Virus record (IMG/VR): IMGVR_UViG_3300032232_000510
Span: 1-60,562 of that record
Length of the DNA stretch: 60,562 nucleotides
Source of the DNA: a virus
Taxonomy: Duplodnaviria > Caudoviricetes
Reading direction: 5' to 3' (one strand)
Program-made: the position numbers and the translations under genes
Shown here: positions 1 to 58,231 of the stretch, in pieces
Position numbering within the stretch: the stretch's first letter is position 1
Layout: the number at the start of each line of letters is the position of its first letter
Notes under the pieces: model-generated
What the model was told of the DNA's origin: nothing
The model's database searches: none
Seen by the model: the letters and a program-made list of their open reading frames with translations, nothing else

Positions 1-3000
1 ATAGTCTGGACAAAATCTTTAGCTGATGGGAGTCCTGCCGCAACGGCACGATTAACCAAGTCGCCAGTAAACACAGCGTAGTCGAGGTACTTACCAGTCA
101 CATCCCTGATTACGCCAATGGAGTTACGGACAGGCTGTTGCAAAACTTTAGGCAGAGCAGCAATTGTTTGTTGTACAAAACTTGGCGTAGGTGGAGCATT
201 TACTCCAAATTTAAAATAACTATTGCTAAACCTAGAATCAGATACCAACTGTACGTCAACAGGAAAGCCTTGAGACTCACCGGGGACAACTTGCCTACGG
301 AGTGACTCGTCGTACTGCCTCCGAACTTCCACATCACGAGCTTCAATTTCTCCGGAAACCATCTGATAAAGTTGCTTTTGAAATGTTTCCCTAGTAATAT
401 TTAAAGCGTTAAGCATGGCTTTTAATGCTGCTTTGGCTTCTTTGTCTGTGGTAAAAACACGGTCGAGCGCCGCCCGTTTTGCATCAGTTAAAGGCGCAGG
501 AGCCCCAGAAGGTAGCGGCTGTATGGCGTTATCTCTATCAAGCATCGCTTGCTTTTTGGCTTTAACCGCATCGCGGTATTTAACCATTGCTTCTTTAGCT
601 TCTGGAGGTGTATTAAATAAATCGGCAGAAGCCGCCCATTTAATTGCAACACTGGCGTTAAATACATCCATGTCAGCCGGATTTGCGCCTTTACCAAAAC
701 CTTCAAGTTCTTGAATTGCGTGTTGAATTTCATGCAGTAGCGTAGACATATCATCTACGTACTGACCCGACATTAATATTTGTTTTTTAGTTGGAATAAA
801 TGCAGCATTTCCCGGAGCAAGATCAGCATCGTATTCAATACTGTAGTTTGCAAGTTCAGGATACAACTTAAACAATTTAGGGTGATCCAAAATATTGCCT
901 AGTTTATGTGGCGTATCCATGCGTACGTTTCCACCGGACATTATTTTTTCAAAAGTAAATTTAGCATCTTTGTCAGAAATTTCAGTACGCCATTCTTTAT
1001 CTGCCCCGCGAATAAATCCTGTGTCAAACCAAATATCCGAACGCAATTCACCATTGGCGTCCATTAGTTTTGCAAGAACAAACCGGCTTTTTTGTTTGTC
1101 GGACATTCCAGCTTGTGTAAGCCCTTTAAGTCCCACAAAACCAAACTTTGCTTGTTTTTGCCCCGCTGTTTGTGCAATAGAAAGTTCCAGTTTTGCTGCG
1201 CCAAATGCCAAATTAACAATATCTTGAGCGGTTAAACCTTCAGTTTTAAAACCCAAACGGCGGATAGCGTTTTGAATTGCAGTCAGCAAAGTACGAAACC
1301 ATGCAGCTAGTGCCGCCGATTTTTTACCCGCAGCCGTTGGGTCAATACCTGATTGGACAGCTTCTTCAATAAAGTAAGCTAGCATTTCAGATGGGCGGTC
1401 TGCTGTAGGAGTATTAGCAGCTTCTACACGCGCTTGTGCAGCTTTAGCCAGTTTGGACTCCACCGAACCATTGTCAGTTTTGGCCCAAGTGTTAATTTGG
1501 GAAGTCAAACTGTCGTAAACAGATTTAGACAGTAGGTTTTCTAAACCTAAGTGTGCGCCTACTTCATGCATAAATTTAGCGCGGCCTTGACCTTGCTCTA
1601 TGCGGTTAGCAACTAAATAAGCTTTTCCGTTGGCGGCAACACCATAAGCTCCTTTACCAAACAATGCTTTACCAACAGCTTGAACTGAGGGGTTTGGATT
1701 ATTAAGGAGGTCGTTTACTGAATCAACAATAGTTAATTTACTACCAAGAACGTCGGCGCGTATAAACTCTTTTATGTCTTTTGTCAGTTCGGCTGCGGTG
1801 TATGGATTTTTAGCTACGCTGTCCGTACCAAACTGAAACTTTTCTTCTTTGCCCGTTAGAGTACGTCCGCCAGCCACATTGGTGGCATTTTTCTGCACGT
1901 CGGTGCGAGTTGTAGTTTCCGTCTTGGGCGTGAAGGTAGTACGAGTTAGTTCGTCCTTGCCGGATTTATTCTTGGCTACGTCACCAGTTAAAAACTCACC
2001 AATCAATTCTTGCTTGTCCGGAACAACAAACAACGCAGCACCGTCCATCTGGTTTAGGTTGTTGGCAACCAAGGAACCAAACGTGGCTTTGTCTACGTTG
2101 ATACAACCAAACGAGTAACGCGAATCAGCAGCGCCTTCTTTCTTGAGGGCTTCCAAACGCTGGGCAGCATCTTTTTCATTCGTCCATACGGAATGAAACA
2201 ACGTAACGCTGTACTCACCATCAATGGCTTTGTCCAACACAAACACTTTACCAAAGTCATATTCGCCAGCGGTACGTTTTTCGTTTGCACTGCGGGTAGC
2301 ATCACGTAGTCCCAAGGTAAATAAACCAGCAGGGGTAATACGGTTTTCAACTTTGTCGGTGTTGCCTTTGTAGAAGTCGCCTATGGTGCGGCCCACAAGG
2401 ACTTTCTTTTGTAAGAACAAAGAGCCATTGGGGTTGAAAATAAATAGCCGAGCATTCGGTTTATCCGTAATAACCATGAACTTGTTTTCAGCTATCAGTC
2501 GGTCTTTAATTGCTGGGTATAAAGTTTGGTATGCCTCTTGAGCCGCCGTGGACATATTTGCTTTAGCGGCTGCGGGTATGGTTGCTTTAACTTGCGTAGT
2601 TGTGGAAACAATTTGAGGTGTAACCACAATGACTTCGCTGTTTTGCGTCATCACACTTGGGTTGAATACCATAGCTACTGCCAAGACCCCAGTGTGGATA
2701 GCTTTAATGATGTCGCGGATAACCCCGGATACTGCCTGTGCGCCCTTAGTAGCGTATGCAGTTACATCGTTCTGGAGCTTGGTAAAGAAGTCAGACGTAC
2801 CGCGCTTAGCGTTGTAGTGATCTTCAAGGCGTTGAACTTGTGGTTCTGGCAGCGCAGCAAGCGGCTGTTCAAGGATTGCTTGTTGTTCCGGATTGATTTG
2901 CGTAGCTTCAGGATTGTCGGCAACTACTTCATCTACCGTTTGCTCAACATGTGCTTCTACTGCGGCGGGAGTAATGACTTCTACCGCTTCAGCAGTTCCA

Positions 3001-6000
3001 GTAGCAGCCGGTGTTGCCACTTTTTCGGCAGGGGCAGCTTTAACAGTCGCGCTAAGTATCGTGTTGGCAGCAGCAAGATTAGCAACCCCACGTTGTGCCA
3101 CATCCGCCCAGCGAGTTTTTTCATCAGCAGATAAAGTTTCATAAGCAGGCATTTGTGGGAACGTCTTTGCCAGATCGTTCCATTGCTCTTCTGAGCTTTT
3201 TACTTGCGTTTCGGCTGGAGCAGCTTTGGTTTTACGTGCGGTGGTAGTTTGGCCCCCTTGGGCGTTTCCTTGGCGAACTTCTCCGCCACCTTTGGATTGT
3301 TCTTGAACAGGTACGCTCGTTGCGCTTGGCTTTGAAACGGCATTGGTAGCTCCTACAGTTTCACCACGGGATTGAAGTTCCGCAGCAATTTTTCCGGACA
3401 ATTCCAGATTTTTTATCGACTGGGTATATGTACGCAGGACTTGCAAGTCACTGGTATCTAGTTTGGTTAAGTCGCGCCCAGCATCGTTCCAACGCTTACG
3501 GGCTTCAGCAGCAGTAGCTTGGGCAGCAGCAACTTCAGGTTTAACTTCCGACGGGGGAGCTTTTAGTGCGCTAAGTAGGGCCGCTGTTTTGCCCAACTCA
3601 TCATTAACTTTGAGCCGCAGTTCTTCAACAATTCCACGGGCATCACCCAAACTAATTTTTTCATTTTTAAGAGCAACTGTAGTTTGCCCAGCTTTTTCAG
3701 CAACAGCAATTTTTGCTTCAAGTTCATCAGCAGCTTGAGCTTGCTCGTACACCAGTTGAGTTTTGCCAGCAATGCGTTCTTCAGGGGATACGTACTCCGC
3801 TTCCAACGCATTAATTTCTTTCTGAACTTTTTCAGCGGTATCAAGGTCATCAGATTTTTCAGCCAAACTAAGCTGTTCGCGTAAACCTTCCAACTTGGCA
3901 GCAACTTCTTTGGTTTTTAGCTTTACGCCTTTTTCAGTTCGGTCAAGAACATTGCCTTGCGAACCACCTTGGCTATTAACGATGGCAAGACCAGCACCTT
4001 CCAAGTCTTGGTCAACAACGGCTTGATTTCCAGCTTGAGCAATTTGGTCATTAGCAAGAGAAGCTAAGCGTGTCTGCGTAGACAGTGCGCCCAGTAAAGT
4101 GCGAAGTTGGTCTTCAGTTCCGCCAACAGCAGCCAGTTTTTCTTTGACATTGGCCGGGCTTACGATTTGAACAACGCGGCCTCGACTGATACCGTGTTTA
4201 GTTGCAACTTCTGCATGGGGTAAGTTTTCTACTAACGCATCGTGCAAGATAGCAGTATCACGTTCACCAAAAGCCCGCACTAATAAACTTCGAGCAGCAG
4301 CAGCGTCTTGTTTAACCTGAGCAGCTTTTTCCGGAGCAAGTTCTGTTTGTACTCCAGAATCAGGAACAATCAACCCGTTATTGGAAACAGCAGCACCCAA
4401 AGTCCCACTAGGAACAACTCGAACTTTTTTGCCGTTAACAGTTTTAGTTACCGGCGCGGCTGTAGCGGTAGTTGTGCCGGAGGTTGCGGGCGCTTGTTGT
4501 CCTTGCGTTTCTGTTTGGATGGTTTGAGCGGTTTGAGAGGTTTGATTGCCACTTGGGGTTCCTGTTGCTGTAACTATAGGGGTAACTGATTGGCCGGGGG
4601 GAGTTGTAGAAATTGCAGCTTGAGCATTTGGGGCGTTAACTCCGGGGGCATTTCCACCCACGGTTCCGACGACAGGAGCAATTGATCCTGAAGGAGCCAG
4701 ATTTCCTTGAACGACAGGAGCCCCAGTTCCCACGCTTGCTGGAGTTCCGGCTGTGGGTGTAGTTGATGTGCCACGGGGACTCCTTGCTCGGATGATTGCG
4801 CCAATGGTATCAGTAGCAAACTTAAATTTGTTTTCGTACAGCGCGTTGAGGATTGGTTCCGCTTCTTCAGAAGTAGGGTCAATGCCCTTCTTTACCATAT
4901 AGTCGTAAATGTTACGCGACTTTTTAGTTGGCTTGATGCCTAGCGCGTTAAGGTCTTCGTCTGTCTTGCTATAAATTGACGGTGTAGTTGCGCCCGGTAC
5001 AGGCGTTGTTGCGCCCGGAGTTGCGCCAGCACTCACAGGTGTCGGTGCAGTTAAATCAATGGATGCTCCTGCCGCAGTTGGGGGGTTTGCACCTAGACTT
5101 GCATTGCCAGTTGAATCAACAATAATTGGATCGCTTGCAAGGCGGGTAGAACCATCAGGGAACGTAACGTACTGCCCAGCGTTCGGGTTATACGAAAGCC
5201 CCAAAGGGGGAGGGGGCGCGTTGTTATCTTTCTGAGTTAAATCAAAGCCGCCTTCTTGAGTACGTCTCCACCCACCAGCAGCACCACCAACAGCACCACC
5301 AAGGAATGCGCCGCCAATAGCAGATTCTTTGTAACGTGCCAAAGCTTCAGGAGACAAAAACTGAGCGTTGGGGTCAACCGCCATGCGACCACCTTGGTTA
5401 AGCATTTCTTGACCAGTTTCGCCAATTGATTCTTCTAAAGCAACGCGCCCAGCGTTGTAGCCTGCCCGAGTAAGCCCGCCTGTAAACCCTTTTAAGTTGT
5501 CTAGCGCAGCCATACCGCCACGAGCTACACCACCACGAGCAATAACCCCAGTTTCGCCAAGCGCGTTTAGCGCGGCGTACGGAACTCCATACAGTGCAGC
5601 GGAACCTAAATCCGTTGTGCCAGCTTGCTCACGTTGGTTTTGCAAAATATCTGCAACTGACGATGGGTAGGCCGCAGTAACCGCACCGCCAATTTGCCCA
5701 GCACCGAGTTGTCTGGTAGCAGCGGTTAACGCGCCGGTATCGCCAGCAGCCCTAGCAGCCGTAGCAGCAGCCCGAGTTCCCGACATCAGCCCACGAGCAG
5801 CCAGTCCACCAACCAAAGCTTCGCCAACATACGGTAAAGATTGGATGGCAAGCCCACCTACGTAACTGGGCAAGTCACCTACACCTTTTACTTGGTCAAA
5901 GCTATTAATTGCACCTTGGTTTGCGGCGCGTTCCATTGCGACGTTAGCCGAGAATTCGTTTGCAATCCGGTTTCTTTTAAAGAAGTCAGCGCCAGTAACT

Positions 6001-6218
6001 GCTTCACCCAAACCGTAAAGCCCAGCTTGATACTGGTCAGCCGAAGCCCCAAACCGTTTTGCCGTAGGGCCAGACGATGTTGGGTTGTATCCGTACCGGC
6101 CCGCTACGTCATTTACCGATTGACCTTTAGCTTCGGCAACCGCTTGTAGAAGTTGCTCGTCGTTTTTGTCGTCGGCAAAAGACCCAAGAGCGGAGCGAAG
6201 TTGAGCAATTGACGGCAT
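1..6218 (-). CDS. Giant polyvalent/internal virion (ejection) protein, N-terminal ~2070 aa; runs off the window edge
   Basis: Not in the ORF track. ATG at 6218 (MPSIAQLRSALGSF...) with AAGGAA upstream. Hand-translated segments are open in one frame, and every listed minus ORF in 1-6200 is in a different frame. Motifs: HGISRGRVVQI (~4170), RITPAGLF...FHSVW...SFGCINV (~2340-2095), FMHEVGAH (~1560), LLHEIQHAIQELEGF (~720). Confidence 0.85.
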   Translation of the reverse strand, partial: MPSIAQLRSALGSFADDKNDEQLLQAVAEAKGQSVNDVAGRYGYNPTSSGPTAKRFGASADQYQAGLYGLGEAVTGADFFKRNRIANEFSANVAMERAANQGAINSFDQVKGVGDLPSYVGGLAIQSLPYVGEALVGGLAARGLMSGTRAAATAARAAGDTGALTAATRQLGAGQIGGAVTAAYPSSVADILQNQREQAGTTDLGSAALYGVPYAALNALGETGVIARGGVARGGMAALDNLKGFTGGLTRAGYNAGRVALEESIGETGQEMLNQGGRMAVDPNAQFLSPEALARYKESAIGGAFLGGAVGGAAGGWRRTQEGGFDLTQKDNNAPPPPLGLSYNPNAGQYVTFPDGSTRLASDPIIVDSTGNASLGANPPTAAGASIDLTAPTPVSAGATPGATTPVPGATTPSIYSKTDEDLNALGIKPTKKSRNIYDYMVKKGIDPTSEEAEPILNALYENKFKFATDTIGAIIRARSPRGTSTTPTAGTPASVGTGAPVVQGNLAPSGSIAPVVGTVGGNAPGVNAPNAQAAISTTPPGQSVTPIVTATGTPSGNQTSQTAQTIQTETQGQQAPATSGTTTATAAPVTKTVNGKKVRVVPSGTLGAAVSNNGLIVPDSGVQTELAPEKAAQVKQDAAAARSLLVRAFGERDTAILHDALVENLPHAEVATKHGISRGRVVQIVSPANVKEKLAAVGGTEDQLRTLLGALSTQTRLASLANDQIAQAGNQAVVDQDLEGAGLAIVNSQGGSQGNVLDRTEKGVKLKTKEVAAKLEGLREQLSLAEKSDDLDTAEKVQKEINALEAEYVSPEERIAGKTQLVYEQAQAADELEAKIAVAEKAGQTTVALKNEKISLGDARGIVEELRLKVNDELGKTAALLSALKAPPSEVKPEVAAAQATAAEARKRWNDAGRDLTKLDTSDLQVLRTYTQSIKNLELSGKIAAELQSRGETVGATNAVSKPSATSVPVQEQSKGGGEVRQGNAQGGQTTTARKTKAAPAETQVKSSEEQWNDLAKTFPQMPAYETLSADEKTRWADVAQRGVANLAAANTILSATVKAAPAEKVATPAATGTAEAVEVITPAAVEAHVEQTVDEVVADNPEATQINPEQQAILEQPLAALPEPQVQRLEDHYNAKRGTSDFFTKLQNDVTAYATKGAQAVSGVIRDIIKAIHTGVLAVAMVFNPSVMTQNSEVIVVTPQIVSTTTQVKATIPAAAKANMSTAAQEAYQTLYPAIKDRLIAENKFMVITDKPNARLFIFNPNGSLFLQKKVLVGRTIGDFYKGNTDKVENRITPAGLFTLGLRDATRSANEKRTAGEYDFGKVFVLDKAIDGEYSVTLFHSVWTNEKDAAQRLEALKKEGAADSRYSFGCINVDKATFGSLVANNLNQMDGAALFVVPDKQELIGEFLTGDVAKNKSGKDELTRTTFTPKTETTTRTDVQKNATNVAGGRTLTGKEEKFQFGTDSVAKNPYTAAELTKDIKEFIRADVLGSKLTIVDSVNDLLNNPNPSVQAVGKALFGKGAYGVAANGKAYLVANRIEQGQGRAKFMHEVGAHLGLENLLSKSVYDSLTSQINTWAKTDNGSVESKLAKAAQARVEAANTPTADRPSEMLAYFIEEAVQSGIDPTAAGKKSAALAAWFRTLLTAIQNAIRRLGFKTEGLTAQDIVNLAFGAAKLELSIAQTAGQKQAKFGFVGLKGLTQAGMSDKQKSRFVLAKLMDANGELRSDIWFDTGFIRGADKEWRTEISDKDAKFTFEKIMSGGNVRMDTPHKLGNILDHPKLFKLYPELANYSIEYDADLAPGNAAFIPTKKQILMSGQYVDDMSTLLHEIQHAIQELEGFGKGANPADMDVFNASVAIKWAASADLFNTPPEAKEAMVKYRDAVKAKKQAMLDRDNAIQPLPSGAPAPLTDAKRAALDRVFTTDKEAKAALKAMLNALNITRETFQKQLYQMVSGEIEARDVEVRRQYDESLRRQVVPGESQGFPVDVQLVSDSRFSNSYFKFGVNAPPTPSFVQQTIAALPKVLQQPVRNSIGVIRDVTGKYLDYAVFTGDLVNRAVAAGLPSAKDFVQT

Positions 6219-9601: not shown

Positions 9602-9615
9602 GTCCGTATTATGAC

Positions 9616-15987: not shown

Positions 15988-15990
15988 GGT

Positions 15991-16236
15991 TTAGTCCTTT
16001 TTGCAGGGGGGAGCATCTTCACTATGGGAAAGTTTTACGCCAGCCAGCAGCCCAATAAAGCCGCCAACAATGGTCTGAAATGCGGGTGATATGAGTTTGA
16101 AGATTTCGGCATTGTCCACAATGGGGTTAAACAGACCCGCCATCAGCACGCCGACCATTCCAATGACAACCACGCACAAGGTGAAGCTGACCATCATGGT
16201 CACAAAGAACGTAAGTTTTGATTTGATGTCATCCAT
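15991..16236 (-). CDS. Small 2-TM membrane protein (lysis cassette)
   Basis: MDDIKSKL start at 16236; two hydrophobic helices. Confidence 0.6.
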   Translation of the reverse strand: MDDIKSKLTFFVTMMVSFTLCVVVIGMVGVLMAGLFNPIVDNAEIFKLISPAFQTIVGGFIGLLAGVKLSHSEDAPPCKKD

Positions 16237-16709: not shown

Positions 16710-16942
16710 TATTGCTTTCCGATAAAGTGTAAAAAGTAACCAACCAGACTACCCAAAGCAGACACAATAGTCATGCCCATCCAAAACCCGCCTTTGCCTT
16801 GATTCGCCATCTCTACCAATTTTTCAATTGACGTTTCAAGCTTATCAATCTTTACAGACATCTCGTCAAAACGACGTTCATAGTCTTGTACTTTTTGCCA
16901 AAGGACTCCGTATTTAACGGGGTCAATTTCCGGTGCATTCAT
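16709..16942 (-). CDS. Small coiled-coil protein with C-terminal TM (XhlA/holin-like)
   Basis: Heptad pattern followed by GKGGFWMGMTIVSALGSLVGYFL. Confidence 0.55.
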   Translation of the reverse strand: MNAPEIDPVKYGVLWQKVQDYERRFDEMSVKIDKLETSIEKLVEMANQGKGGFWMGMTIVSALGSLVGYFLHFIGKQ

Positions 16943-16986: not shown

Positions 16987-17385
16987 TCAAGTTGCAAGGA
17001 ACTCCGGCGAACCAATACGGTTTATTCCGCCATCAACCCGATAGCGAAGGTTTTTCTTGTTGTTTAACGCCCAAATTATGAGGAACGACAAGACCGTAGA
17101 ATCAACTTTAACGCCGCACTCGGACATATCGTACACCTCAATTGTGCCTTCCATGCGACGGGATACCACAATTTTTGCTAGTGATGGTTTAAACCATTCA
17201 GGAATACTTTCGTCCTGTAACCACGCACATCGGTACTCAGAACAAAGAGGTGGCCTATCAGGGTAGATGGTACACCCGTTGCCGAAGAAAAAACAAGGAC
17301 GCCCGGGGTAAAACTCATGCCCGCGCACAGTACCAGATACAGCACCCTTGCAACACTCGGAGCAATCCCCGCAAACCCGGCTCAC
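16987..17385 (-). CDS. YkgJ-like CxxCxxCC Zn/Fe-S cluster protein
   Basis: GTG at 17385 overlaps the upstream stop (GTGA); CGDCSECC...CFFFGNGCTIYPDRPPLCSEYRC. Confidence 0.8.
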   Translation of the reverse strand: MSRVCGDCSECCKGAVSGTVRGHEFYPGRPCFFFGNGCTIYPDRPPLCSEYRCAWLQDESIPEWFKPSLAKIVVSRRMEGTIEVYDMSECGVKVDSTVLSFLIIWALNNKKNLRYRVDGGINRIGSPEFLAT

Positions 17386-17972
17386 GAAAACTCCGTCCAG
17401 CCAGTAAGTATGTACTTTACCCCAGACAAAGGAGGGTTGCCCCGATGCGCCCACGGGTAATTCGGAGGGAAGATAACTAGCCGCCCGCGTTTTGGTTTTA
17501 CCCGTTTGTGTAAATATAAAAACTCTGTTTCCCCGCCTTCGTCTACATCGTTTAAATACAAGATATAAACGCCCAGCCGGTTCATATGTTCTTTTGCGGC
17601 ATCTTCGCAATGCCAAATATGATACCCACCTCCGGGTAACGTTTTTTGAACTTTGTAAGTAAAAATAGTATGCTGTGAAGACTGGTCAATTACGCTGTAA
17701 GCTTTACGATAGTCAGCATAACAAGTGTCCCAAAACCCAGTACTAAATTCTCCAATAAAAGCCGGAATGTTTGCGCTGATAAATGATAGTTCGTTTGGGG
17801 AAGTAGGATTTAGATTTACAGCTTGGTCATCTTTTAGATGTTGCGCTTCAATTCGCCCATATGTCCTGTTATTGCTTTGACACCATTCGAAGTGGTTTAT
17901 AAGATTTTGGCAAAATTCACTACTAAATACGCCGTCATATATACCGACAAAGTTATCGTGTTCAACTTGCAT
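17382..17972 (-). CDS. 2OG-Fe(II) oxygenase (prolyl-4-hydroxylase-like)
   Basis: GYHIWHCE (H-x-E), LYLNDVDEGGETEF, HRGNPP...KYILTGW. Confidence 0.9.
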   Translation of the reverse strand: MQVEHDNFVGIYDGVFSSEFCQNLINHFEWCQSNNRTYGRIEAQHLKDDQAVNLNPTSPNELSFISANIPAFIGEFSTGFWDTCYADYRKAYSVIDQSSQHTIFTYKVQKTLPGGGYHIWHCEDAAKEHMNRLGVYILYLNDVDEGGETEFLYLHKRVKPKRGRLVIFPPNYPWAHRGNPPLSGVKYILTGWTEFS

Positions 17973-17980
17973 TAACGCTC

Positions 17981-18574
17981 CTATTTAAATGATGGGCCAG
18001 CAGTCCAAACAACAAGTGTTTTACGAATGCCACGAGTGACTGGGGTGACCCGGTGTAATCTCCAGCTAGGAACCAACGCAATAAGCCCGCGTTTTTTATC
18101 AACAGCTACAGGATCACTACCATTTAATGTTTCAAGAACTCCGCCGTCATAATCTTCCGGATCGGATAACTGAAGAACTAGACTTAATTTTCTAGCAGCT
18201 TCAGTTGTAGGAGTCATGTCTTCGTGCCATGTGTAATGGCCTGCGTCGTCTGCGGTGTATACCGTGTATTGAAAATGTTCTACAAACCCATACAAATCAA
18301 AACCAAAAAACTTTGCGTTTGCTTTTCGTGCTACGTACGCAAGACGATCATAAATCCACCCGCTGTCAGGATTATTGTCTATCCAACCAACCATGGAACG
18401 TCGTATGGATGGAACATTTGGTGTATCAGAATTTACAGTTGCGGGTTCTAAACTAAGCGAATCGCCGTAAGTAACAATACGATCAAGTTCTTCGTTGGTA
18501 AAAGCATCTTCCCAAGTTACAAAACTATGGTTGTGGTTAGAAGTATTGTCTGGCGCAAATTGATAAATGGACAT
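17981..18574 (-). CDS. 2OG-Fe(II) oxygenase (PKHD/PiuC-like)
   Basis: HYTWHED (H-x-D), RKLSLVLQLSDPEDYDGG, HRVTPVTRGIRKTLVVW. Confidence 0.9.
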   Translation of the reverse strand: MSIYQFAPDNTSNHNHSFVTWEDAFTNEELDRIVTYGDSLSLEPATVNSDTPNVPSIRRSMVGWIDNNPDSGWIYDRLAYVARKANAKFFGFDLYGFVEHFQYTVYTADDAGHYTWHEDMTPTTEAARKLSLVLQLSDPEDYDGGVLETLNGSDPVAVDKKRGLIALVPSWRLHRVTPVTRGIRKTLVVWTAGPSFK

Positions 18575-18810
18575 TAAGTTGTTCCGAGAAGTTTATCGGA
18601 GGCAGTTAAAATAAGATATTGGGCATACCATTTATCGTGAGGGGCAAATTTTGCTACGTACGTAGAGATATCATTAATATCCAACTCACTGGTAATTGGA
18701 ACGTTGTACGTAATTTTGGTGAGGCTAGCATGAGTAGGCGTAAACTCTACCAGCATACTGCCTTGTTCGGCAAACAGTTGTTTGACTTGGTGTGTGTATT
18801 CAAAAATCAT
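18574..18810 (-). CDS. Hypothetical protein
   Basis: 78 aa, coupled between the Gly-rich gene and the oxygenase. Confidence 0.6.
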   Translation of the reverse strand: MIFEYTHQVKQLFAEQGSMLVEFTPTHASLTKITYNVPITSELDINDISTYVAKFAPHDKWYAQYLILTASDKLLGTT

Positions 18811-18818
18811 AGCAGTCC

Positions 18819-21716
18819 TTATTGCCGTGCCCAGCTAACCGTTAACGACCCGTTAGTACTTCCAGTCCCTAGTGTATAGGATACAGGCGTACGAAATGGA
18901 ATTGTCGGGTTTGCTGTATTAAATGATTGAGTTGGTGCAGCGCCTCCGGGGTTACCAGCGCCCCCAAGATTGCCAGCGTTTCCAGACACAGCGCCAGTTC
19001 CAGCAGTGCCCGCAGACCCTGCGTTTCCGTTTGCGCCTGCACCGCCTGCATTACCCGGAGAGCCGCCTGTAGCTCCACTACCCGCAGCACCTGTATTACC
19101 AGCAGTACCAGCAGAGCCCGCAGCACCCGCGTTACCCGGAGAGCCGCCTGTAGCTCCACTACCCGCAGCACCTGTATTACCAGCGCTACCTGCCGAACCA
19201 GCGCCGCCCGGATTACCAGCAGAACCGCCTGTAGCTCCACTACCCGCAGCACCTGTATTACCCGCAGTACCGGCAGCGCCCGCACCACCTGCATTACCCG
19301 GAGAGCCGCCTGTAGCCCCTGTGCCGTTTGCTCCAGCATTTCCTGCACTACCCGCAGCGCCTGCATTTCCAGAAGTAGCGCCAGTACCCGCAGCACCAGT
19401 ATTGCCCGCAGTACCCGCAGCGCCAGCGTTGCCCGCACCCCCCGGGTTACCCACAGAACCATAACCAGAACTTGCGCCGCCACCGCCGCCGCCTGCTCCA
19501 GCAGCAGCACTAACTTGACCTGCTTTTCCGTTGTATTGCATTGCCGCGCCGCCGCCGCCGCCACCACTACCGCCTTGTTGAGCATCTGGCGATGCAGTTC
19601 CCGGAGAACCGGATGCTTGCCCCGTGCTGTTATTCATATTTGCACCCGAGCCACCAGTACCAGCATAAGAGAGCACAACCCCGCCCCATCCACCATTACC
19701 TCCGTATGCATTGGCGATGCCGTAACCGCCGCTACCAGAACCTCCAGCAGTACCGGCTGCTGCATTTGGGGAACCCGCAGCACCACCTGCACCGCCGCCC
19801 GCATTAGCCCCCAAAGTGGTAGAACCTCCGGTATAACCTCCGCCACCAGTAGCGCCTTTAGGGCCACCATTACCCGCAGCCCCGCCCGTGCCATTATTTC
19901 CTGCATTGCCAGCGTTACCTATAGCCCCAGAATTACCCGCAGCCCCACCTGTGCCATTATTTCCCGCATTACCCGAATTTCCAGCAGCCCGACCCGTATT
20001 GCCAGCAGCACCGCCTGCACCACCATTACCAGCAGTACCGTTGTTTCCGGAGTTTCCTGAGTTACCTATAGCCCCAGAATTACCCGCACCACCGCCTGCA
20101 CCACCATTACCAGCAGCACCATTGTTCCCGGGGTTTCCTGAGTTACCTGTAGCTCCAGAATTACCCGCACCACCGCCTGCGCCACCATTACCAGCGGCAC
20201 CATTATTTCCGGGGTTTCCTGAGTTACCTATAGCTCCAGAATTACCAGCAGTGCCGCCTGCACCACCATTACCAGCAGCCCCATTGTTCCCGGTATTACC
20301 TGAAGTACCCGCGTTCCCGGGATTACCCGCTGCGCCGCCGTTGCCTGCTACGCCCGCTGCACCGCCAGTTCCCGCAGAACCTCCAGCAGTTCCGGGAAAA
20401 GTGTAGTTGACGTAAAAAATAGTGCTATTCCCGGGGTTACCCGCAGTACCAGCAGTACCTATATTTCCATTTGTGCCAGCAGTTCCCGCAGCCCCTGCAC
20501 CTCCGGGATTTCCTGCGTTTCCGGCTGTTGCTCCAGTGCCAGCATTACCAGCGGCACCTGTGTTGCCCGCAGCACCAGCATTGCCCGGGCTCCCTGCATT
20601 TCCTAATGTACGTCCAGTGCCAGCATTACCAGCAGCCCCTGTGCTACCAGCACTTCCAGCATTACCCGGGCTTCCTGCGTTTCCTAATGTACGTCCAGTG
20701 CCAGCATTACCAGCAGCCCCTGTGCTACCAGCACTTCCAGCATTACCCGGGCTTCCCCCGCCACCGCCAGTTGCTCCAGTACCTGCATTACCAGCAGCAC
20801 CCGTATTACCAGAAACACCCAAACTGCCTGCATTGCCTGCTCCGCCACCAGTTGCTCCAGTACCTGCATTACCGGCAGCGCCTGCATTACCCGGGCTTCC
20901 ATTACCCCCAGCAGTGGCGCCAGTGCCCGGGTTACCCGCAGTACCCGCAGTTCCATTAGCCCCAGCAGCACAAGCTGCACCCCCCGATCCGCCATAACCA
21001 GTTCCGGATGGGCCAGAAATATTTCCGCCTGTTCCGCCAGCACCCCCACCACCGCCTGCGCCAGTATTTCCGGGGTTACCCGCATTGCCGGGATTGCCCG
21101 CGCCACCCGCAGCACCACCTGCACCACCTGTGCCGTTATTCCCTGCATTGCCGGGATTGCCTGCTCCACCCGCAGTGCCGCCATTGCCACCTGTGCCGTT
21201 GGTGCCAGAGTTACCAATAGCACCTGCATTTCCGGGGTTACCTGCTCCACCCGCAGCACCGCCTGCACCGCCAGTGCCGTTGTTGCCTGAGTTACCTGTT
21301 GCTCCTGCGTTTCCGGGGTTGCCCGCAGCACCCGCATTACCGCCTGCACCGCCAGTGCCGTTGTTGCCTGAGTTACCTATGGAGCCTGCGTTTCCGGGGT
21401 TGCCCGCAGAACCTGCGTTACCGCCTGCACCGCCAGTGCCGTTGTTGCCTGAGTTACCTATGGAGCCTGCGTTGCCGGGGTTACCAAGAGTTCCGCCGTT
21501 ACCGGCAGTACCCGCAGCACCATTACTACCCGCATTGCCGGGGTTGCCTGCGTTTCCAGTACCGCCAGCAGTTCCGGAGTTACCTCTTCCACCAGCGCCG
21601 GAAACAGAAACTTTACGAACGCCAAAACCGAAAGTGTAGGAACTTCCGGAAGTTAAATTGACTGAACCAGCATTGACGATGGTTCGCCGTAAGGTGCTAG
21701 TAAAACCGATTGGCAT
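18819..21716 (-). CDS. Glycine-rich Gly-X-X repeat fibre protein (polyglycine-II/collagen-like)
   Basis: 965 aa dominated by G-N-A/G-A-A/G-N-P/G-T-G triplets; short beta-like segments at the N-terminus, middle (NSTIFYVNYTFPG) and C-terminus (GSLTVSW). Confidence 0.85.
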   Translation of the reverse strand: MPIGFTSTLRRTIVNAGSVNLTSGSSYTFGFGVRKVSVSGAGGRGNSGTAGGTGNAGNPGNAGSNGAAGTAGNGGTLGNPGNAGSIGNSGNNGTGGAGGNAGSAGNPGNAGSIGNSGNNGTGGAGGNAGAAGNPGNAGATGNSGNNGTGGAGGAAGGAGNPGNAGAIGNSGTNGTGGNGGTAGGAGNPGNAGNNGTGGAGGAAGGAGNPGNAGNPGNTGAGGGGGAGGTGGNISGPSGTGYGGSGGAACAAGANGTAGTAGNPGTGATAGGNGSPGNAGAAGNAGTGATGGGAGNAGSLGVSGNTGAAGNAGTGATGGGGGSPGNAGSAGSTGAAGNAGTGRTLGNAGSPGNAGSAGSTGAAGNAGTGRTLGNAGSPGNAGAAGNTGAAGNAGTGATAGNAGNPGGAGAAGTAGTNGNIGTAGTAGNPGNSTIFYVNYTFPGTAGGSAGTGGAAGVAGNGGAAGNPGNAGTSGNTGNNGAAGNGGAGGTAGNSGAIGNSGNPGNNGAAGNGGAGGGAGNSGATGNSGNPGNNGAAGNGGAGGGAGNSGAIGNSGNSGNNGTAGNGGAGGAAGNTGRAAGNSGNAGNNGTGGAAGNSGAIGNAGNAGNNGTGGAAGNGGPKGATGGGGYTGGSTTLGANAGGGAGGAAGSPNAAAGTAGGSGSGGYGIANAYGGNGGWGGVVLSYAGTGGSGANMNNSTGQASGSPGTASPDAQQGGSGGGGGGAAMQYNGKAGQVSAAAGAGGGGGGASSGYGSVGNPGGAGNAGAAGTAGNTGAAGTGATSGNAGAAGSAGNAGANGTGATGGSPGNAGGAGAAGTAGNTGAAGSGATGGSAGNPGGAGSAGSAGNTGAAGSGATGGSPGNAGAAGSAGTAGNTGAAGSGATGGSPGNAGGAGANGNAGSAGTAGTGAVSGNAGNLGGAGNPGGAAPTQSFNTANPTIPFRTPVSYTLGTGSTNGSLTVSWARQ
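19030..21485 (-). repeat. Four blocks of 81-nt (27-aa) tandem repeats inside the Gly-rich gene
   Basis: Recurring words at 19051/19132/19294, 20053/20134/20215, 20602/20683 and 21361/21442; all offsets are multiples of 81. Confidence 0.9.
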
Positions 21717-21728
21717 AGCAGCATTTCA

Positions 21729-22109
21729 CTAAGTGTTGTACTGGGTATATAAAGCTGGGAAGGCTTGAATTGCGGCAAGACCTGAAGCGTAACGAACTGG
21801 GGAGTACCGAGCCGGAACATCACTGTGAACTTCGGTATACACTAAAAATGGATATTTGGTTAACGCAGGCAATGCAGGTGCATACAAATTGTCACCAATA
21901 GCACGATCATCTGCCCACCACGTATTGACGGCATTTAGCACCTCTTGGCACTGGGAAATGTCGTTGTACATTAGCCGAGTAAACGGAATACCTGAGTGAT
22001 CCATAAAAGCTACGGCAGCAGTGTTTTCTGCTGCGTCACCTGTTACATCAGAGAAGTACAAATAAACTTCTTCAATTTTTTGAATAGACATAAAAAAATC
22101 CTTTATCAA
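21729..22109 (-). CDS. Hypothetical protein, possible glutaredoxin-like fold lacking CxxC
   Basis: VYLY...AVAFMDHSGIPFTRL...KYPFLVY; start may be 22091 (MSIQK). Confidence 0.5.
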   Translation of the reverse strand: MIKDFFMSIQKIEEVYLYFSDVTGDAAENTAAVAFMDHSGIPFTRLMYNDISQCQEVLNAVNTWWADDRAIGDNLYAPALPALTKYPFLVYTEVHSDVPARYSPVRYASGLAAIQAFPALYTQYNT

Positions 22110-24271
22110 GAAACATTAGCCATCGCAAACGTGCCGAAATACGACGTTCCGCTATTTACTGTAAAAAATGTCAATATATCAATTTGATTTGCTCCTGTTG
22201 ACAAAATAGGAGCAGTACCGTCAGTATATTTTGCACTAGTAAAAGTAGCAAGCCTACTTCCAGTCGCGTCCTGTTGGAGAATAATAGTCGCCGGTTTACT
22301 TCTTCCGGAGACTGGGGGATTGGTAAAAGTAAAAGTTACGTTTGTTGAAATCGTAAAGTAAAAAATATTACCTAGTGATAAGTCAATGTTGTATGTACTT
22401 GTAGATACGGTTGCCGTAACAACTTTTTCTTCGTATGACTGAAAGTATGGGGTAACTAAAGTAGGGGCTGTACCAAATACCGCCGACCCCGATCCAGTTT
22501 CATCCGTTAACGCTGATGCAAGATTTGCGCTGGAAGGAGTAGCAAGAAAAGTAGCAACCCCAGTTCCTAGACCAGAAATACCCGTGGATACTGGAAGACC
22601 TGTAGCGTTAGTTAAAGTTGCAGACGTTGGGGTACCAAGTACGGGGGTTACCAGTGTGGGGCTAGTGGACAAAACTAAATTGCCCGAGCCGGTAGAGGTT
22701 GTAACTCCAGTACCGCCATACGCTACAGCAATAGTAGTTGCTTGCCAAGTGCCCGTAGCCAACGTGCCTACGCTTGTAAGGCTTGAGCCAACTACAGTAG
22801 ACCCAAGCCCTGTTGGGCTTAACAATGTGACGTTATTAATCTTGTACGTTTTTCCGGTAGCAAGGTTCCAATTTTCACTAGAAGTCCAATTAGCGTTAGC
22901 GCTATCCCAACGAATAGTTTTTGTAGTTGTGCCGAGTAAATCAATTCCGCCGCCATCAGCAGTTGTGTCAGTTGGAGAAGCAACTGCACCCAACTCAATG
23001 TTTTTATCATCAACATTTAGCGTTGTTGAATTTACCGTAGTAGTTGTACCATTAACAGTAAGGTTGCCGCCTACAGTTACGTCGCTGCTTGTAGTTACGG
23101 TGGTAAAACTACCTGTAGTTGGAGTAGTAGCGCCAACAGTTCCATTAATGTTTAGAGAAGCCGTTCCATTTGTAGAACCTGTTCCCCCATTGGCAATCGG
23201 TAAAGTTCCGTTTACCCCGGCGGTAAGGGAAACCGTATTTTTTTCCCAAAGCCCTGTTACGCTATTAAAAACAATAGTCTGGCCGGTAGTTGGAGACTGT
23301 GCGCTTACATCGTGAATTTCATCAAGCTCATAGCCATTTTGAACTTTGACAAAAATTTTGCCTTGCGTTGGGTGGGCGTGTTCAACAACACCAACGTAAA
23401 CCAAATGAACTGGGGCATAAGTTTTTGTGCTTGTGTATGTGCCCGCAGTAGTCCCACTTAAATACAGTTGAGCGCCATCGGTAAATGCAGATGTGTCTAT
23501 CCCAGTAAGTAAGCCAATAATTGTTACGTACCCATTTGCATTATTCGCCAAATCAGCCGTCATCATTCCCAAACTTTGGGCAGATGTTGCATCAGAAGTT
23601 GCAAGTGCTTTAGAAACAGTAGGAATCTGTCCAGTAGCACCGGACATATAAACAACCGTTCCCTTTGTAAGGGTAGCGCCAGTTGTATTGCGAACTTGCA
23701 CAATCACGTTTGTGGTGGATGCCGCAACCGATACCGACAAATCTACCGCGCTTCCAGTTTGAGCAACAGTAACTGATCCGTCAGCAGATGCAACACTTCC
23801 AATAGCGCCAAGGTTAGTTAGCGCCCCACCAGTAGTTGTAGCTCCAGTTCCGCCACTAGCAACTGCAAGAGTTGCAGATAAACCAGCAGCAGTACCCGTT
23901 GTGTTCTGATTAAACGTAGGCCAAGTAAAAGTGCCGGTACTAAAATTTCCAGACACCGGAGTACCCAAAGCCGGGGTTACTAACGTAGCAGAAGTAAGGG
24001 TTGAATCTGTTGCTAATGCGAGTACAGTCCCCGTGCCGCTAGTTGTGTATGAAGTTCCCCATGCAGTTCCGGTGGAGTACGCAATACCCACACCGGGGTA
24101 AGAAGCACTAGTCCCGGGAACCCAAGCTGTACCGTTCCAAATAACAGTTTGCCCATTGGTGGGCGTTCCTGTTACTTGGAGTTTGTCGGTGTTGAGGTTA
24201 TTGAAGTTGTTGTCAACTTCAGTGTTCGTAAGGGGGCTACCCTTAACTGAACGCAGTGTAATACTTGACAT
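22106..24271 (-). CDS. Tail fibre protein
   Basis: 721 aa, Thr/Gly-rich; TLRSVKGSPLTNTEVDNNF, VASGGTGATT, GNLTVNGTTTTVNSTT, C-terminal IILQQDATGSR...IDILTFFT. Confidence 0.8.
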   Translation of the reverse strand: MSSITLRSVKGSPLTNTEVDNNFNNLNTDKLQVTGTPTNGQTVIWNGTAWVPGTSASYPGVGIAYSTGTAWGTSYTTSGTGTVLALATDSTLTSATLVTPALGTPVSGNFSTGTFTWPTFNQNTTGTAAGLSATLAVASGGTGATTTGGALTNLGAIGSVASADGSVTVAQTGSAVDLSVSVAASTTNVIVQVRNTTGATLTKGTVVYMSGATGQIPTVSKALATSDATSAQSLGMMTADLANNANGYVTIIGLLTGIDTSAFTDGAQLYLSGTTAGTYTSTKTYAPVHLVYVGVVEHAHPTQGKIFVKVQNGYELDEIHDVSAQSPTTGQTIVFNSVTGLWEKNTVSLTAGVNGTLPIANGGTGSTNGTASLNINGTVGATTPTTGSFTTVTTSSDVTVGGNLTVNGTTTTVNSTTLNVDDKNIELGAVASPTDTTADGGGIDLLGTTTKTIRWDSANANWTSSENWNLATGKTYKINNVTLLSPTGLGSTVVGSSLTSVGTLATGTWQATTIAVAYGGTGVTTSTGSGNLVLSTSPTLVTPVLGTPTSATLTNATGLPVSTGISGLGTGVATFLATPSSANLASALTDETGSGSAVFGTAPTLVTPYFQSYEEKVVTATVSTSTYNIDLSLGNIFYFTISTNVTFTFTNPPVSGRSKPATIILQQDATGSRLATFTSAKYTDGTAPILSTGANQIDILTFFTVNSGTSYFGTFAMANVS

Positions 24272-57970: not shown

Positions 57971-58231
57971 TTACCATTTCACCTTATTAGCCCAGTAGGC
58001 CGCAGACATTGGCCCTTTTGCAATGTTCTTGGCATGTCGTGCCTTGAACGCATCGTTTCGAGCAGACCCATCAGGACTGCCCTTAGCCCCCTGTTGACCG
58101 AAGTGAATTGTCTTCACCTGATCGCCAACCTTTGCCACTACAACATGGCTTTTTTTAGGATTGTTGGGAGTAGCCTTGGGTTTGTTATACCCCGATACTC
58201 CGACTCGCTCTAGCCTTGGGTCTTTGCTCAT
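57971..58231 (-). CDS. Small basic phage protein
   Basis: GYNKPKATP...KSHVVVAK...IHFGQQG...FKARH...SAAYWANKVKW. Confidence 0.75.
   Translation of the reverse strand: MSKDPRLERVGVSGYNKPKATPNNPKKSHVVVAKVGDQVKTIHFGQQGAKGSPDGSARNDAFKARHAKNIAKGPMSAAYWANKVKW

What the first reader, a model, noticed from the sequence alone, without database searches (positions are those of the whole stretch)
16987..22109. Candidate fibre-modification cassette: Gly-X-X protein plus two 2OG-Fe(II) oxygenases, a CxxCxxCC protein and a glutaredoxin-like protein
Seen: a tightly packed run in the structural operon: glutaredoxin-like ORF, 965-aa Gly-X-X protein, 78-aa ORF, HxD oxygenase, HxE oxygenase, YkgJ-like protein (gaps of 12 nt or less, or overlaps). 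The Gly-rich protein has many G-N-P-G and G-S-P-G sites and abundant Asn. Established: collagen prolyl-4-hydroxylases act on X-Pro-Gly, and other 2OG oxygenases hydroxylate Asn/Asp. Phage 2OG oxygenases are common but usually labelled metabolic or DNA-repair genes. Inference: a dedicated post-translational hydroxylation and maturation pathway for a virion fibre, analogous to collagen maturation.
Basis: partly seen in the sequence, partly recalled or inferred. Interest (0 to 1): 0.8.

Follow-up and report, generated by a model that had tools for sequence, protein, structure and literature searches.

The report
Phage collagen-like fibre with prolyl hydroxylases
An uncultured tailed phage encodes, next to its tail-fibre gene, a long collagen-like protein whose prolines sit almost only where collagen gets hydroxylated, followed by two prolyl-hydroxylase-type enzymes, so it probably hydroxylates its own fibre, which has not been shown for phages.

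Summary
On the minus strand, inside the late structural operon of a 60.6-kb phage record, lie these genes in order:
- a 721-aa fibre;
- a 120-aa thioredoxin-fold protein without cysteines (A126);
- a 965-aa strict Gly-X-Y protein (COL);
- a 78-aa ORF;
- a PiuC/PHD-like HxD oxygenase (Oxy1);
- a collagen-P4H-like HxE oxygenase (Oxy2);
- a CxxCxxCC protein.

In the clade of 41 non-redundant Oxy1 relatives, 36 of 36 loci with enough flank carry a Gly-X-Y gene within 2 kb on the same strand.

Those linked genes carry Pro at Y in 16.4% of triplets and at X in 3.2%. Unlinked collagen-like genes in the same loci show the reverse (X 23.9%, Y 5.0%), as published for bacterial and viral collagens. X-Pro-Gly is the collagen P4H target.

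Two further lineages show the same pairing: another phage backbone and an actinobacterial chromosome. The thioredoxin-fold protein co-occurs with the long form. The 78-aa ORF and the CxxCxxCC protein are sporadic.

Asn hydroxylation is not supported, and no chemistry is shown. The same theme was noted earlier in this scan on other DNA.

The parts
22106..24271 (-). 721-aa tail-fibre protein (fib721). Its C-terminal ~120-180 residues are the part conserved directly upstream of the cassette in related phages.
   Evidence: PHROG matches to virion structural and tail fibre families. tblastn matches of its C-terminal part lie next to the cassette in most related loci.
21729..22091 (-). A126: 120-aa thioredoxin/glutaredoxin-fold protein without a conserved cysteine. 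It is a conserved member of the long-form cassette.
   Evidence: No Pfam, PHROG or NCBIfam match. In the alignment of 24 homologues only M1, Y42, W58 and P81 are invariant. The AF2 model has pLDDT 92.7. The best Foldseek PDB match is glutaredoxin 1, 3msz, at E 3.4e-3 and TM 0.77 on the target, followed by other thioredoxin-fold proteins. The HMM finds it in 32 of 41 clade-A loci, 0 of 22 clade-B, 0 of 34 other viral, 0 of 80 bacterial and 0 of 55 Oxy2-only loci.
18819..21716 (-). COL: 965-aa Gly-X-Y protein. It has four arrays of an 81-nt (27-aa, 9-triplet) repeat, each unit carrying one G-N/S-P-G site. Short non-repeat N- and C-terminal segments are conserved in the family. It is the candidate substrate.
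   Evidence: Composition and Pro positions. Pfam Collagen 47.8 bits. NCBIfam Scl2/SclB-like match below cut-off. 81-nt arrays at 19035-19316, 19998-20293, 20510-20812 and 21142-21482. Conserved termini across long and short homologues.
18574..18810 (-). C78: 78-aa ORF of unknown function, a sporadic accessory gene.
   Evidence: No family match. Homologues in 10 of 41 clade-A loci only. The Atlas gives only unnamed viral clusters at 0.86-0.87.
17981..18574 (-). Oxy1: 197-aa 2OG-Fe(II) oxygenase of the PiuC/PHD prolyl-hydroxylase branch (HxD...H...R). This is the enzyme strictly linked to the Gly-X-Y gene.
   Evidence: PF13640 48.8 bits. Invariant H117, D119, H174 and R184. AF2 pLDDT 87.2. Best Foldseek matches are PHD2, P. 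putida EF-Tu prolyl hydroxylase, PiuC and 3dkq, TM about 0.73. The profile against PDB gives 14 of 14 hits in the PiuC, P4H or PHD groups. Linkage.
17382..17972 (-). Oxy2: 196-aa 2OG-Fe(II) oxygenase most like bacterial and viral collagen-type prolyl 4-hydroxylases (HxE...H...K). It is an accessory enzyme of the cassette.
   Evidence: PF13640 47.4 bits. phmmer against PDB: B. anthracis P4H 3.9e-8, PBCV-1 P4H 2.8e-4. Profile against PDB: 4 of 4 hits are P4Hs, best 4.7e-13. Invariant H121, E123, H176 and K186. Homologues also occur without any Gly-X-Y gene.
16987..17385 (-). 132-aa CxxCxxCC protein (YkgJ-like by motif only), a sporadic accessory gene.
   Evidence: GTG start overlapping the Oxy2 stop. 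phrog_9155, unknown function, 1.1e-33. PF03692 only below threshold, E 0.04-9.4 in 4 of 5 homologues. Present in 4 of 41 clade-A and 1 of 22 clade-B loci.

Best explanation
This is a tail-fibre accessory module. Its core is a collagen-like Gly-X-Y protein (COL), a small cysteine-less thioredoxin-fold protein (A126) and a prolyl-hydroxylase-type 2OG/Fe(II) oxygenase (Oxy1).

Proposed mechanism (inferred, not shown): during late infection, Oxy1 hydroxylates the prolines of the G-N/S-P-G sites on the unfolded COL chain. These prolines are at the Y position, that is X-Pro-Gly. In this phage the collagen-P4H-like Oxy2 probably helps. The reaction would use 2-oxoglutarate, O2 and Fe(II). The resulting hydroxyproline would stabilise the polyproline-II-type helices of a Pro-poor fibre, as in animal collagen.

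A126 is more likely an assembly or solubility helper for the long COL form than a redox enzyme. The 78-aa ORF and the CxxCxxCC protein are optional extras of unknown role.

Shown here: gene content, catalytic residues, folds, conserved linkage and the Pro-at-Y bias. Inferred: the substrate, the residue modified and the effect on the fibre.
For: 1. Linkage. In a tree of 92 non-redundant Oxy1 relatives from viral contigs, the clade holding the window has 41 rows: 36 have a Gly-X-Y ORF with Pro mostly at Y within 2 kb on the same strand, 5 have too little flank, and none lacks it (SH-aLRT 92). FastTree with 76 bacterial rows added, 168 rows in all, gives 37 + 5 of 42. Identity to the window's Oxy1 is 42-70% across this clade, and COL length varies from 364 to 1603 aa. 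The pair therefore persists through much divergence and through gene-order changes.

2. The sister clade of 22 rows keeps Oxy1 and Oxy2 with a short COL homologue downstream: 17 have Pro mostly at Y, 4 are equal, 1 has short flank.

3. Background. Only 2 of 80 bacterial-genome loci with Oxy1 homologues have any Gly-X-Y ORF within 6 kb. In both it lies directly upstream and is Y-Pro. Two named phage records with 38-41% homologues have none within 7 kb.

4. Independent contexts.
- L082, L162 and L178 have no tblastn match to any other of the 13 window genes tested, and their COL has different termini. The Gly-X-Y gene still ends 12 nt before Oxy1, with Pro X/Y counts of 1/35, 1/27 and 1/35.
- L217 comes from an Acidimicrobiales MAG with sarcosine-oxidase genes alongside. 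It carries an LAYTG-anchored Gly-X-Y protein (X 6, Y 36) just upstream of an Oxy1 homologue.

5. Pro position. In 68 dereplicated Gly-X-Y ORFs near Oxy1, Pro is at X in 266 and at Y in 1370 of 8374 triplets (56 ORFs Y>X, 6 X>Y, 6 equal). In 22 other Gly-X-Y ORFs of the same loci, X is 439 and Y is 91 of 1836 triplets. The stricter run gave Fisher p = 8e-5, not corrected for kinship.

6. Same-phage contrasts, fibre against COL (X/Y): L019 53/3 against 1/17, L020 96/19 against 10/13, L119 44/0 against 1/50.

7. Published passages state that viral and bacterial collagens lack Pro at Y because they lack prolyl hydroxylases (PMC3368898; PMC8968730).

8. Enzyme type. Both enzymes have intact triads and match only prolyl-hydroxylase-type structures. 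According to the review passage, B. anthracis P4H favours Y-position Pro.
Against: - No chemistry was done, and no mass spectrometry data exist for this uncultured phage.
- The linkage rests on few independent origins. Parsimony needs 13 changes of the label on the tree, and only 7 are forced by well-supported branches. Most of the 36 of 36 is shared ancestry.
- By sequence, Oxy1's nearest solved relatives are PiuC and 3dkq, whose substrates are unknown and which papers link to iron uptake (PMC13184970 passages). PHD2 and PPHD act on folded, non-collagen targets.
- Most bacterial and many viral homologues have no Gly-X-Y neighbour.
- Oxy2 relatives occur without COL, and once beside an X-Pro fibre.
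- The window's COL has only 3.6% Pro, far below collagens. With its Gly/Ala/Asn/Ser/Thr make-up, it could instead fold as polyglycine-II bundles in which N-P-G makes turns. That would explain Pro at Y without hydroxylation.
- Related cassettes carry three to five different oxygenase-like genes, so other residues or other targets are possible.
Confidence: 0.5

Rival explanations
1. The oxygenases are auxiliary or host-directed genes, for example PiuC-like iron-related functions, hydroxylation of a host translation factor as in Pseudomonas PPHD, or DNA/RNA repair. They merely sit in an accessory-gene hot spot between the fibre and lysis genes. The neighbourhood with COL would then be inherited, not functional.
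For: PHROGs files both enzymes under 'moron, auxiliary metabolic gene'. Oxy1's nearest solved sequences are PiuC and 3dkq. A 2026 survey treats PiuC-type viral oxygenases as auxiliary genes of unclear role (PMC13184970 passages). Oxy2 relatives stand without COL, directly before lysis genes or next to a transposase. 78 of 80 bacterial homologues have no Gly-X-Y neighbour, and the four loci examined lie among housekeeping genes.
Against: The pair is kept through rearrangements of gene order and in a different phage backbone and a bacterial chromosome. The linked proteins, and only they, carry Pro at Y. A126, a non-enzyme, follows the same distribution.
Confidence: 0.2
2. The oxygenases do modify a virion protein, but not Pro of COL. 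The target could be the conserved C-terminal domain of the 721-aa fibre, or another residue of COL such as Asn.
For: The fibre's C-terminal domain is the most constant neighbour of the cassette. In the sister clade the oxygenases follow it directly, with COL further downstream. Asn fills a median 31% of X positions in linked COLs. Unchecked earlier notes of this scan (e1-2014067, e1-1997676, e1-6028943) describe similar oxygenases behind non-collagen fibre genes.
Against: L082, L162, L178 and L217 keep COL next to Oxy1 with no fib721 homologue. Those COLs have 2-3% Asn at X but 35-36% Pro at Y. Neither enzyme matched any Asn/Asp hydroxylase structure. Every significant sequence-profile hit in PDB was of the PiuC, P4H or PHD type.
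Confidence: 0.15
3. COL is not a collagen triple helix but a polyglycine-II-type bundle or some other Gly-rich fold. The Y-position prolines would be structural, with N-P-G acting as turns or helix breakers, and would stay unmodified.
For: Pro is only 3.6% of residues, there is one Pro per 27-residue unit, and the rest is Gly/Ala/Asn/Ser/Thr. The resemblance to snow-flea antifreeze protein and the ALK glycine-rich domain is recalled, not tested.
Against: Homologues reach 35-36% Pro at Y, far too dense for turns. Gly-X-Y phase is unbroken for up to 64 triplets. This reading does not explain the constant oxygenase neighbour.
Confidence: 0.15

Closest known systems
Bacillus anthracis prolyl 4-hydroxylase (PDB 3itq, 5hv0) with the collagen-like exosporium protein BclA
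   Same: A small single-domain bacterial P4H. It is the best solved sequence match of Oxy2 (3.9e-8; profile 4.7e-13) and also matches the Oxy1 profile (1.7e-6). It hydroxylates collagen-like peptides and favours Y-position Pro (review passage).
   Different: Natural hydroxylation of a bacterial collagen by it has not been established, according to the review passage. It is not encoded beside its presumed substrate (recalled). Oxy2 has HxE where the family has HxD.
Chlorovirus PBCV-1 prolyl 4-hydroxylase (PDB 5c5t)
   Same: A virus-encoded small P4H. It matches Oxy2 (2.8e-4; 1.4e-6).
   Different: It comes from a virus of eukaryotic algae. Its proposed substrates are Pro-rich repeats, not a Gly-X-Y fibre gene next door (recalled).
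PiuC / YbiX 'PKHD-type hydroxylases' (PDB 9ghl, 9qn0-4, 3dkq)
   Same: The nearest solved sequences to Oxy1 (1.6e-7; profile 1e-13), with the same HxD...H...R arrangement. They are the type to which most marine viral 2OG oxygenases are assigned (PMC13184970 passages).
   Different: Their substrate is unknown and they are linked to iron uptake. The bacterial genes are not next to Gly-X-Y genes (78 of 80 loci). NCBIfam scores for Oxy1 are far below the cut-offs (49 against 143 bits).
HIF prolyl hydroxylase PHD2 and Pseudomonas putida PPHD (PDB 5l9b, 4iw3)
   Same: The best structural matches of the Oxy1 model (TM 0.73-0.74). Both are protein prolyl 4-hydroxylases.
   Different: Only 16-18% identity. 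They act on single prolines of folded or signalling proteins, not on repeats.
Animal collagen prolyl 4-hydroxylase (alpha2-beta2, with protein disulfide isomerase as beta subunit)
   Same: It targets X-Pro-Gly, the context of 24 of 25 in-repeat prolines here. A thioredoxin-fold partner travels with the enzyme. That the PDI subunit's cysteines are dispensable is recalled.
   Different: The phage enzymes lack the N-terminal peptide-substrate-binding and dimerisation domains (196-197 aa in all). A126 is a single 120-aa domain with no sequence match to PDI. No binding between A126 and the enzymes was shown.
Predicted bacterial collagen-like / tail-collar protein hydroxylation-sulfation operons (Iyer, Abhiman, de Souza, Aravind 2010, PMC2938197, passages read)
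   Same: [quoted passage not shown]
   Different: Those operons are bacterial and use beta-hydroxylase and PhyH-family enzymes with sulfotransferases. The same paper ascribed phage dioxygenase arrays to secondary metabolism. It mentions neither the Pro-at-Y signature nor a P4H/PHD-type enzyme.

Membership tests
2OG-Fe(II) oxygenase, prolyl-hydroxylase branch (Pfam PF13640) | Profile score above Pfam's gathering cut-off | tested here: met
   Oxy1 48.8 bits and Oxy2 47.4 bits against a cut-off of 27.
2OG-Fe(II) oxygenase, prolyl-hydroxylase branch (Pfam PF13640) | His-X-Asp/Glu...His iron triad, plus a basic 2OG-binding residue ten positions after the second His | tested here: met
   Oxy1: H117, D119, H174 and R184 invariant in 25 sequences. 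Oxy2: H121, E123, H176 and K186 invariant in 22 sequences. H176 and K186 align with a His and a Lys of B. anthracis P4H.
2OG-Fe(II) oxygenase, prolyl-hydroxylase branch (Pfam PF13640) | Double-stranded beta-helix fold closest to prolyl hydroxylases | tested here: met
   Oxy1 only: AF2 pLDDT 87.2, and the best Foldseek matches are PHD2, PPHD, PiuC and 3dkq.
2OG-Fe(II) oxygenase, prolyl-hydroxylase branch (Pfam PF13640) | Prolyl hydroxylase activity on a defined substrate | not testable with these tools
   Needs enzyme assays and mass spectrometry.
Collagen triple-helix repeat proteins (Pfam PF01391) | Uninterrupted Gly-X-Y repeats, with a profile score above the cut-off | tested here: met
   Runs of 64, 44 and 18 triplets, with 73% of residues in runs. 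47.8 bits against a cut-off of 27.2.
Collagen triple-helix repeat proteins (Pfam PF01391) | High imino-acid content (Pro/Hyp about 20% in animal collagens; Pro 19-31% of X positions in bacterial ones) | tested here: not met
   Window COL: 35 Pro in 965 residues (3.6%), with Pro at Y in 24 of 236 triplets and at X in 1. Homologues reach 36% at Y.
Collagen triple-helix repeat proteins (Pfam PF01391) | Parallel homotrimeric triple helix | not testable with these tools
   Needs CD, electron microscopy or a solved structure.
Glutaredoxin / thioredoxin | Thioredoxin-type fold | tested here: met
   AF2 pLDDT 92.7. The best Foldseek rows are glutaredoxin 1 (3msz, E 3.4e-3), SasA/KaiB, GST omega and NrdH. 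No row reaches E 0.001.
Glutaredoxin / thioredoxin | CxxC or CxxS active site, and a family profile match | tested here: not met
   No conserved Cys among 24 homologues. No Pfam or NCBIfam match, even at E 10.
YkgJ / CxxCxxCC zinc- or iron-chelating domain (Pfam PF03692) | CxxCxxCC motif | tested here: met
   C-G-D-C-S-E-C-C near the N-terminus. Seen in 4 of the 5 sequences; L098 reads CxxCxxCC shifted, with one Cys fewer.
YkgJ / CxxCxxCC zinc- or iron-chelating domain (Pfam PF03692) | Profile score above the gathering cut-off | tested here: not met
   12 bits against a cut-off of 23 for the window protein. Below threshold in 4 of 5 homologues and absent in 1.
PiuC/YbiX PKHD-type hydroxylase (NCBIfam PRK05467 models) | Score above the equivalog cut-off | tested here: not met
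   Best score 49.1 bits against a cut-off of 143.

The most novel reading that the evidence does not exclude
A whole clade of the abundant 'PiuC-type' viral 2OG oxygenases are collagen-type prolyl hydroxylases. On this reading, phages and some Actinobacteria make hydroxyproline-containing collagen-like fibres whose sequence has adapted to it (Pro moved from X to Y). The cysteine-less thioredoxin-fold protein would serve the enzyme or the nascent chain the way protein disulfide isomerase serves animal collagen P4H. That would be a prokaryotic-virus counterpart of the animal collagen maturation pathway.
Probability: 0.3. Interest if true: 0.85.

Novelty: new variant of a known kind. Interest (0 to 1): 0.66.

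Why it matters
Published analyses say that bacterial and viral collagens avoid Pro at Y because these organisms lack prolyl hydroxylases (PMC3368898, passages read). Recent surveys still list the very common viral PiuC-type oxygenases as auxiliary genes of unknown role (PMC13184970, passages read).

This cassette offers a concrete, cheaply testable enzyme-substrate pair that would bear on both statements. It also supplies a sequence signature, Gly-X-Pro next to the enzyme, for finding more such pairs.

If true, it would show post-translational tailoring of a phage fibre. It would also provide small single-domain hydroxylases matched to a natural Pro-poor collagen-like substrate, which may be of use for recombinant collagen work.

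My searches found no paper describing phage-encoded hydroxylation of a phage collagen-like fibre. Supplementary files were not read. Earlier unchecked notes of this scan raise the same theme on other phage genomes.

Tried and rejected
- **Near-identical phages:** a megablast of 14 kb against the phage collection found no match.
- **tRNAs:** none found in the window.
- **Complex prediction:** the queue was full. I first meant to test Oxy1 with A126, then used the single job on three copies of COL residues 753-965. The result was 'no answer' (score 0.00, controls not run, fold uncertain). It says nothing either way, and the Oxy1-A126 pairing was never tested.
- **Gly-X-Y detector:** my first version required Gly above 20% of the whole ORF and missed mixed-domain fibres such as the one in L045. 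I repeated the count without that filter and the contrast held.
- **ESM Atlas:** searches for the CxxCxxCC protein and the 78-aa ORF gave only unnamed viral clusters.
- **Scan notes:** none exist for this genome.
- **Careful IQ-TREE run:** it did not finish, so the quick tree and FastTree are what I cite.
- **L005:** it was dropped from alignment A1 because its Oxy1 copy has an in-frame stop.
- **Redox role for A126:** considered and set aside because it has no conserved cysteine.
- **Plus-strand Pro/Ala-rich ORFs over the COL gene:** I take these to be shadows of the repeat. The minus-strand frame is the one with termini conserved across homologues.
Full report
**What is there**

The window is a 60,562-bp virus record rated complete. 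Genes 34,946 to 3 all run on the minus strand. They form a late operon: large terminase, portal/adaptor, major head protein, structural proteins, fibres, the cassette, lysis genes (lysozyme at 14847-15347), an internal virion protein of the kind found in Stx-type and Vibrio podophages, a J-like tail protein and a fibre-assembly protein.

The cassette reads as follows:

| Gene | Coordinates | Size |
|---|---|---|
| fib721 | 22106-24271 | 721 aa |
| A126 | 21729-22091 | 120 aa |
| COL | 18819-21716 | 965 aa |
| C78 | 18574-18810 | 78 aa |
| Oxy1 | 17981-18574 | 197 aa |
| Oxy2 | 17382-17972 | 196 aa |
| CxxCxxCC ORF | 16987-17385 | 132 aa |

Spacings from A126 to the CxxCxxCC ORF are 12 nt or less, or short overlaps.

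**The proteins**

- **COL** is a strict Gly-X-Y protein. 73% of its residues lie in runs of at least 4 triplets, with runs of 64, 44 and 18 triplets. Asn dominates X (97 of 236) and Ala dominates Y (102 of 236). Of the 25 in-repeat prolines, 24 are at Y, in G-N-P-G or G-S-P-G. The gene holds four arrays of an 81-nt unit, each unit with one such site. It passes Pfam Collagen.
- **Oxy1 and Oxy2** both pass PF13640 and have invariant catalytic residues.
- **Oxy1** is nearest in sequence to PiuC and 3dkq. Its confident model is nearest in structure to PHD2, Pseudomonas PPHD and PiuC.
- **Oxy2** matches only prolyl 4-hydroxylases in PDB. B. anthracis P4H comes first and PBCV-1 P4H second. It carries Lys at +10 from the second His, as that family does.
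- **A126** has no family match. It folds with pLDDT 92.7 into a thioredoxin-type fold, and the best match is a glutaredoxin at E 3.4e-3. Its 24-sequence alignment has no conserved cysteine.
- **The CxxCxxCC protein** carries the motif but stays under Pfam's threshold.

**Linkage**

Scans of viral contigs with Oxy2, with Oxy1 and with an Oxy1 profile gave 174 loci.

After dereplication at 95%, 96 Oxy1 relatives remained, and 92 of them, including the window, were put on a tree:
- The clade of 41 around the window holds 36 loci with a Y-Pro Gly-X-Y ORF within 2 kb on the same strand. The other 5 loci are too short to judge. None lacks the ORF.
- The sister clade of 22 keeps fib721, Oxy1 and Oxy2, then a short COL homologue (290-480 aa) with the same conserved termini.
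- Outer clades mostly lack any such gene.
- FastTree with bacterial rows added agrees.

Gene order varies across these loci:
- A126 may lie before or after COL, or after Oxy1.
- Oxy2 may lie before or after Oxy1, or be absent.
- Other oxygenase-like genes may be inserted: PF13759, and a 243-aa ORF with a weak DUF6065 match.

COL and Oxy1 stay together throughout.

A126 follows the long form: 32 of 41 clade-A loci, and none of 191 other loci. C78 (10 of 41) and the CxxCxxCC gene (4 of 41, plus 1 of 22) are sporadic.

**Independence and background**

Most of this linkage is shared ancestry. The tree needs 13 label changes, of which 7 are forced by well-supported branches. Three observations go beyond ancestry.

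1. L082, L162 and L178 share no other tested gene with the window, and their Gly-X-Y protein has different end domains. Their Oxy1 lies inside the clade, and the Gly-X-Y gene ends 12 nt before it.
2. L217 is a contig of an Acidimicrobiales MAG with sarcosine-oxidase genes next door. It encodes an LAYTG-anchored G-A/T-P-G-x-D protein directly before an Oxy1 homologue.
3. The background is low. Only 2 of 80 bacterial loci have any Gly-X-Y ORF within 6 kb, and these are the two just named. There are none near the homologues in two named phage records, and 2 among the Oxy2-only loci, both X-Pro or Pro-poor.

**The proline signature**

| Gly-X-Y ORFs | ORFs | Triplets | Pro at X | Pro at Y |
|---|---|---|---|---|
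| Near Oxy1 | 68 | 8374 | 3.2% | 16.4% |
| Other ORFs of the same loci | 22 | 1836 | 23.9% | 5.0% |

- Three phages carry both kinds side by side: an X-Pro fibre and a Y-Pro COL (L019, L020, L119).
- The residue before the Y-Pro is Asn, Ser, Gln or Thr.
- Asn is not the common denominator. The L082 type has 2-3% Asn at X and 35-36% Pro at Y.
- Passages of Ghosh et al. 2012 and of a 2022 review say that bacterial and viral collagens put Pro at X and little at Y, and that this reflects the absence of prolyl hydroxylases.

The cassette family is the exception, and it carries the enzyme.

**Reading**

The best-supported explanation is prolyl hydroxylation of COL at X-Pro-Gly by Oxy1, with Oxy2 as a second P4H in this phage. 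A126 would be a non-redox helper for the long form. I put this at 0.5.

The rivals are:
- auxiliary or host-directed oxygenases in a hot spot (0.2);
- another target in the fibre module, or another residue (0.15);
- a non-collagen Gly-rich fold in which the Y-Pro is structural (0.15).

**What is open**

- No chemistry has been done.
- Whether COL is in the virion is unknown.
- Whether COL is a trimeric triple helix is unknown. Its Pro content of 3.6% is far below that of known collagens.
- Whether A126 binds anything is unknown.
- Oxy2 was not folded.

**Comparison with what is known**

The enzymes are members of the PF13640 prolyl-hydroxylase branch. Oxy1 is not an equivalog of PiuC/YbiX by NCBIfam scores. 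Known parallels are:
- B. anthracis P4H;
- PBCV-1 P4H;
- animal collagen P4H with its thioredoxin-fold PDI subunit (recalled);
- mimivirus collagen lysyl hydroxylase (recalled);
- the 2010 prediction that bacterial beta-hydroxylase/PhyH operons hydroxylate co-encoded collagen-like proteins (PMC2938197, passages read).

I found no paper on a phage-encoded P4H paired with a Y-Pro phage collagen (searches; supplements not read). Earlier unchecked notes of this scan describe related fibre-plus-hydroxylase modules on other phage DNA.

I rate this a new variant of a known kind.

Noticed in passing
window 1-6218 and 58228-60562, minus strand: The 3'-open ORF 3..6218 (2072 aa) and the 5'-open ORF 58228..60561 (777 aa) are in phase across the record ends. 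Two leftover bases at 2-1 plus base 60562 make one codon. A circular or permuted genome would therefore encode one protein of about 2850 aa.
   Followed up: partly
L217:1-1685 (Acidimicrobiales MAG contig): A bacterial Gly-X-Y protein with Pro at Y (36 against 6 at X) ends in an LAYTG motif plus a hydrophobic tail. It lies directly before an Oxy1 homologue (40% identity), with sarcosine-oxidase genes alongside. This is a possible cellular case of the same pairing.
   Followed up: partly
L109:5065-9842 and the L098-L107 group: Related cassettes carry a battery of further oxygenase-like genes after COL: a 243-aa ORF with a weak DUF6065 match, two PF13759 proteins and a DUF6445 protein. Small conserved ORFs of 67 and 73 aa accompany them.
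   Followed up: partly
L019, L020, L119, L014 (fibre genes upstream of COL): In some relatives the tail fibre itself has a collagen segment with Pro at X (for example 96 at X against 19 at Y). One phage therefore carries both kinds of collagen-like sequence in neighbouring genes.
   Followed up: yes
L180:4699-6540 (Rhizobium MAG): Three tandem PF13640 oxygenase genes lie in a chromosomal setting, next to an MFS transporter and a phosphoglycerate mutase.
   Followed up: no
L045:3520-9649: An Oxy2 homologue (45% identity) sits 1.4 kb after a 1014-aa X-Pro collagen-like tail fibre (81 Pro at X, 0 at Y). A glycosyltransferase gene and the major head protein gene follow it.
   Followed up: partly
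L005:219-806: The Oxy1 copy of this close relative (69% identity) contains an in-frame stop codon.
   Followed up: no
window 14847-16942: A lysis block sits in the middle of the structural operon, between the cassette and the internal virion protein gene. It consists of small membrane-protein-like ORFs of 77, 157, 92 and 171 aa plus a phage lysozyme.
   Followed up: no
window 9185-9859: An acyl-CoA N-acyltransferase-like ORF (phrog_4470) lies among the tail genes, next to a fibre-assembly-like gene.
   Followed up: no
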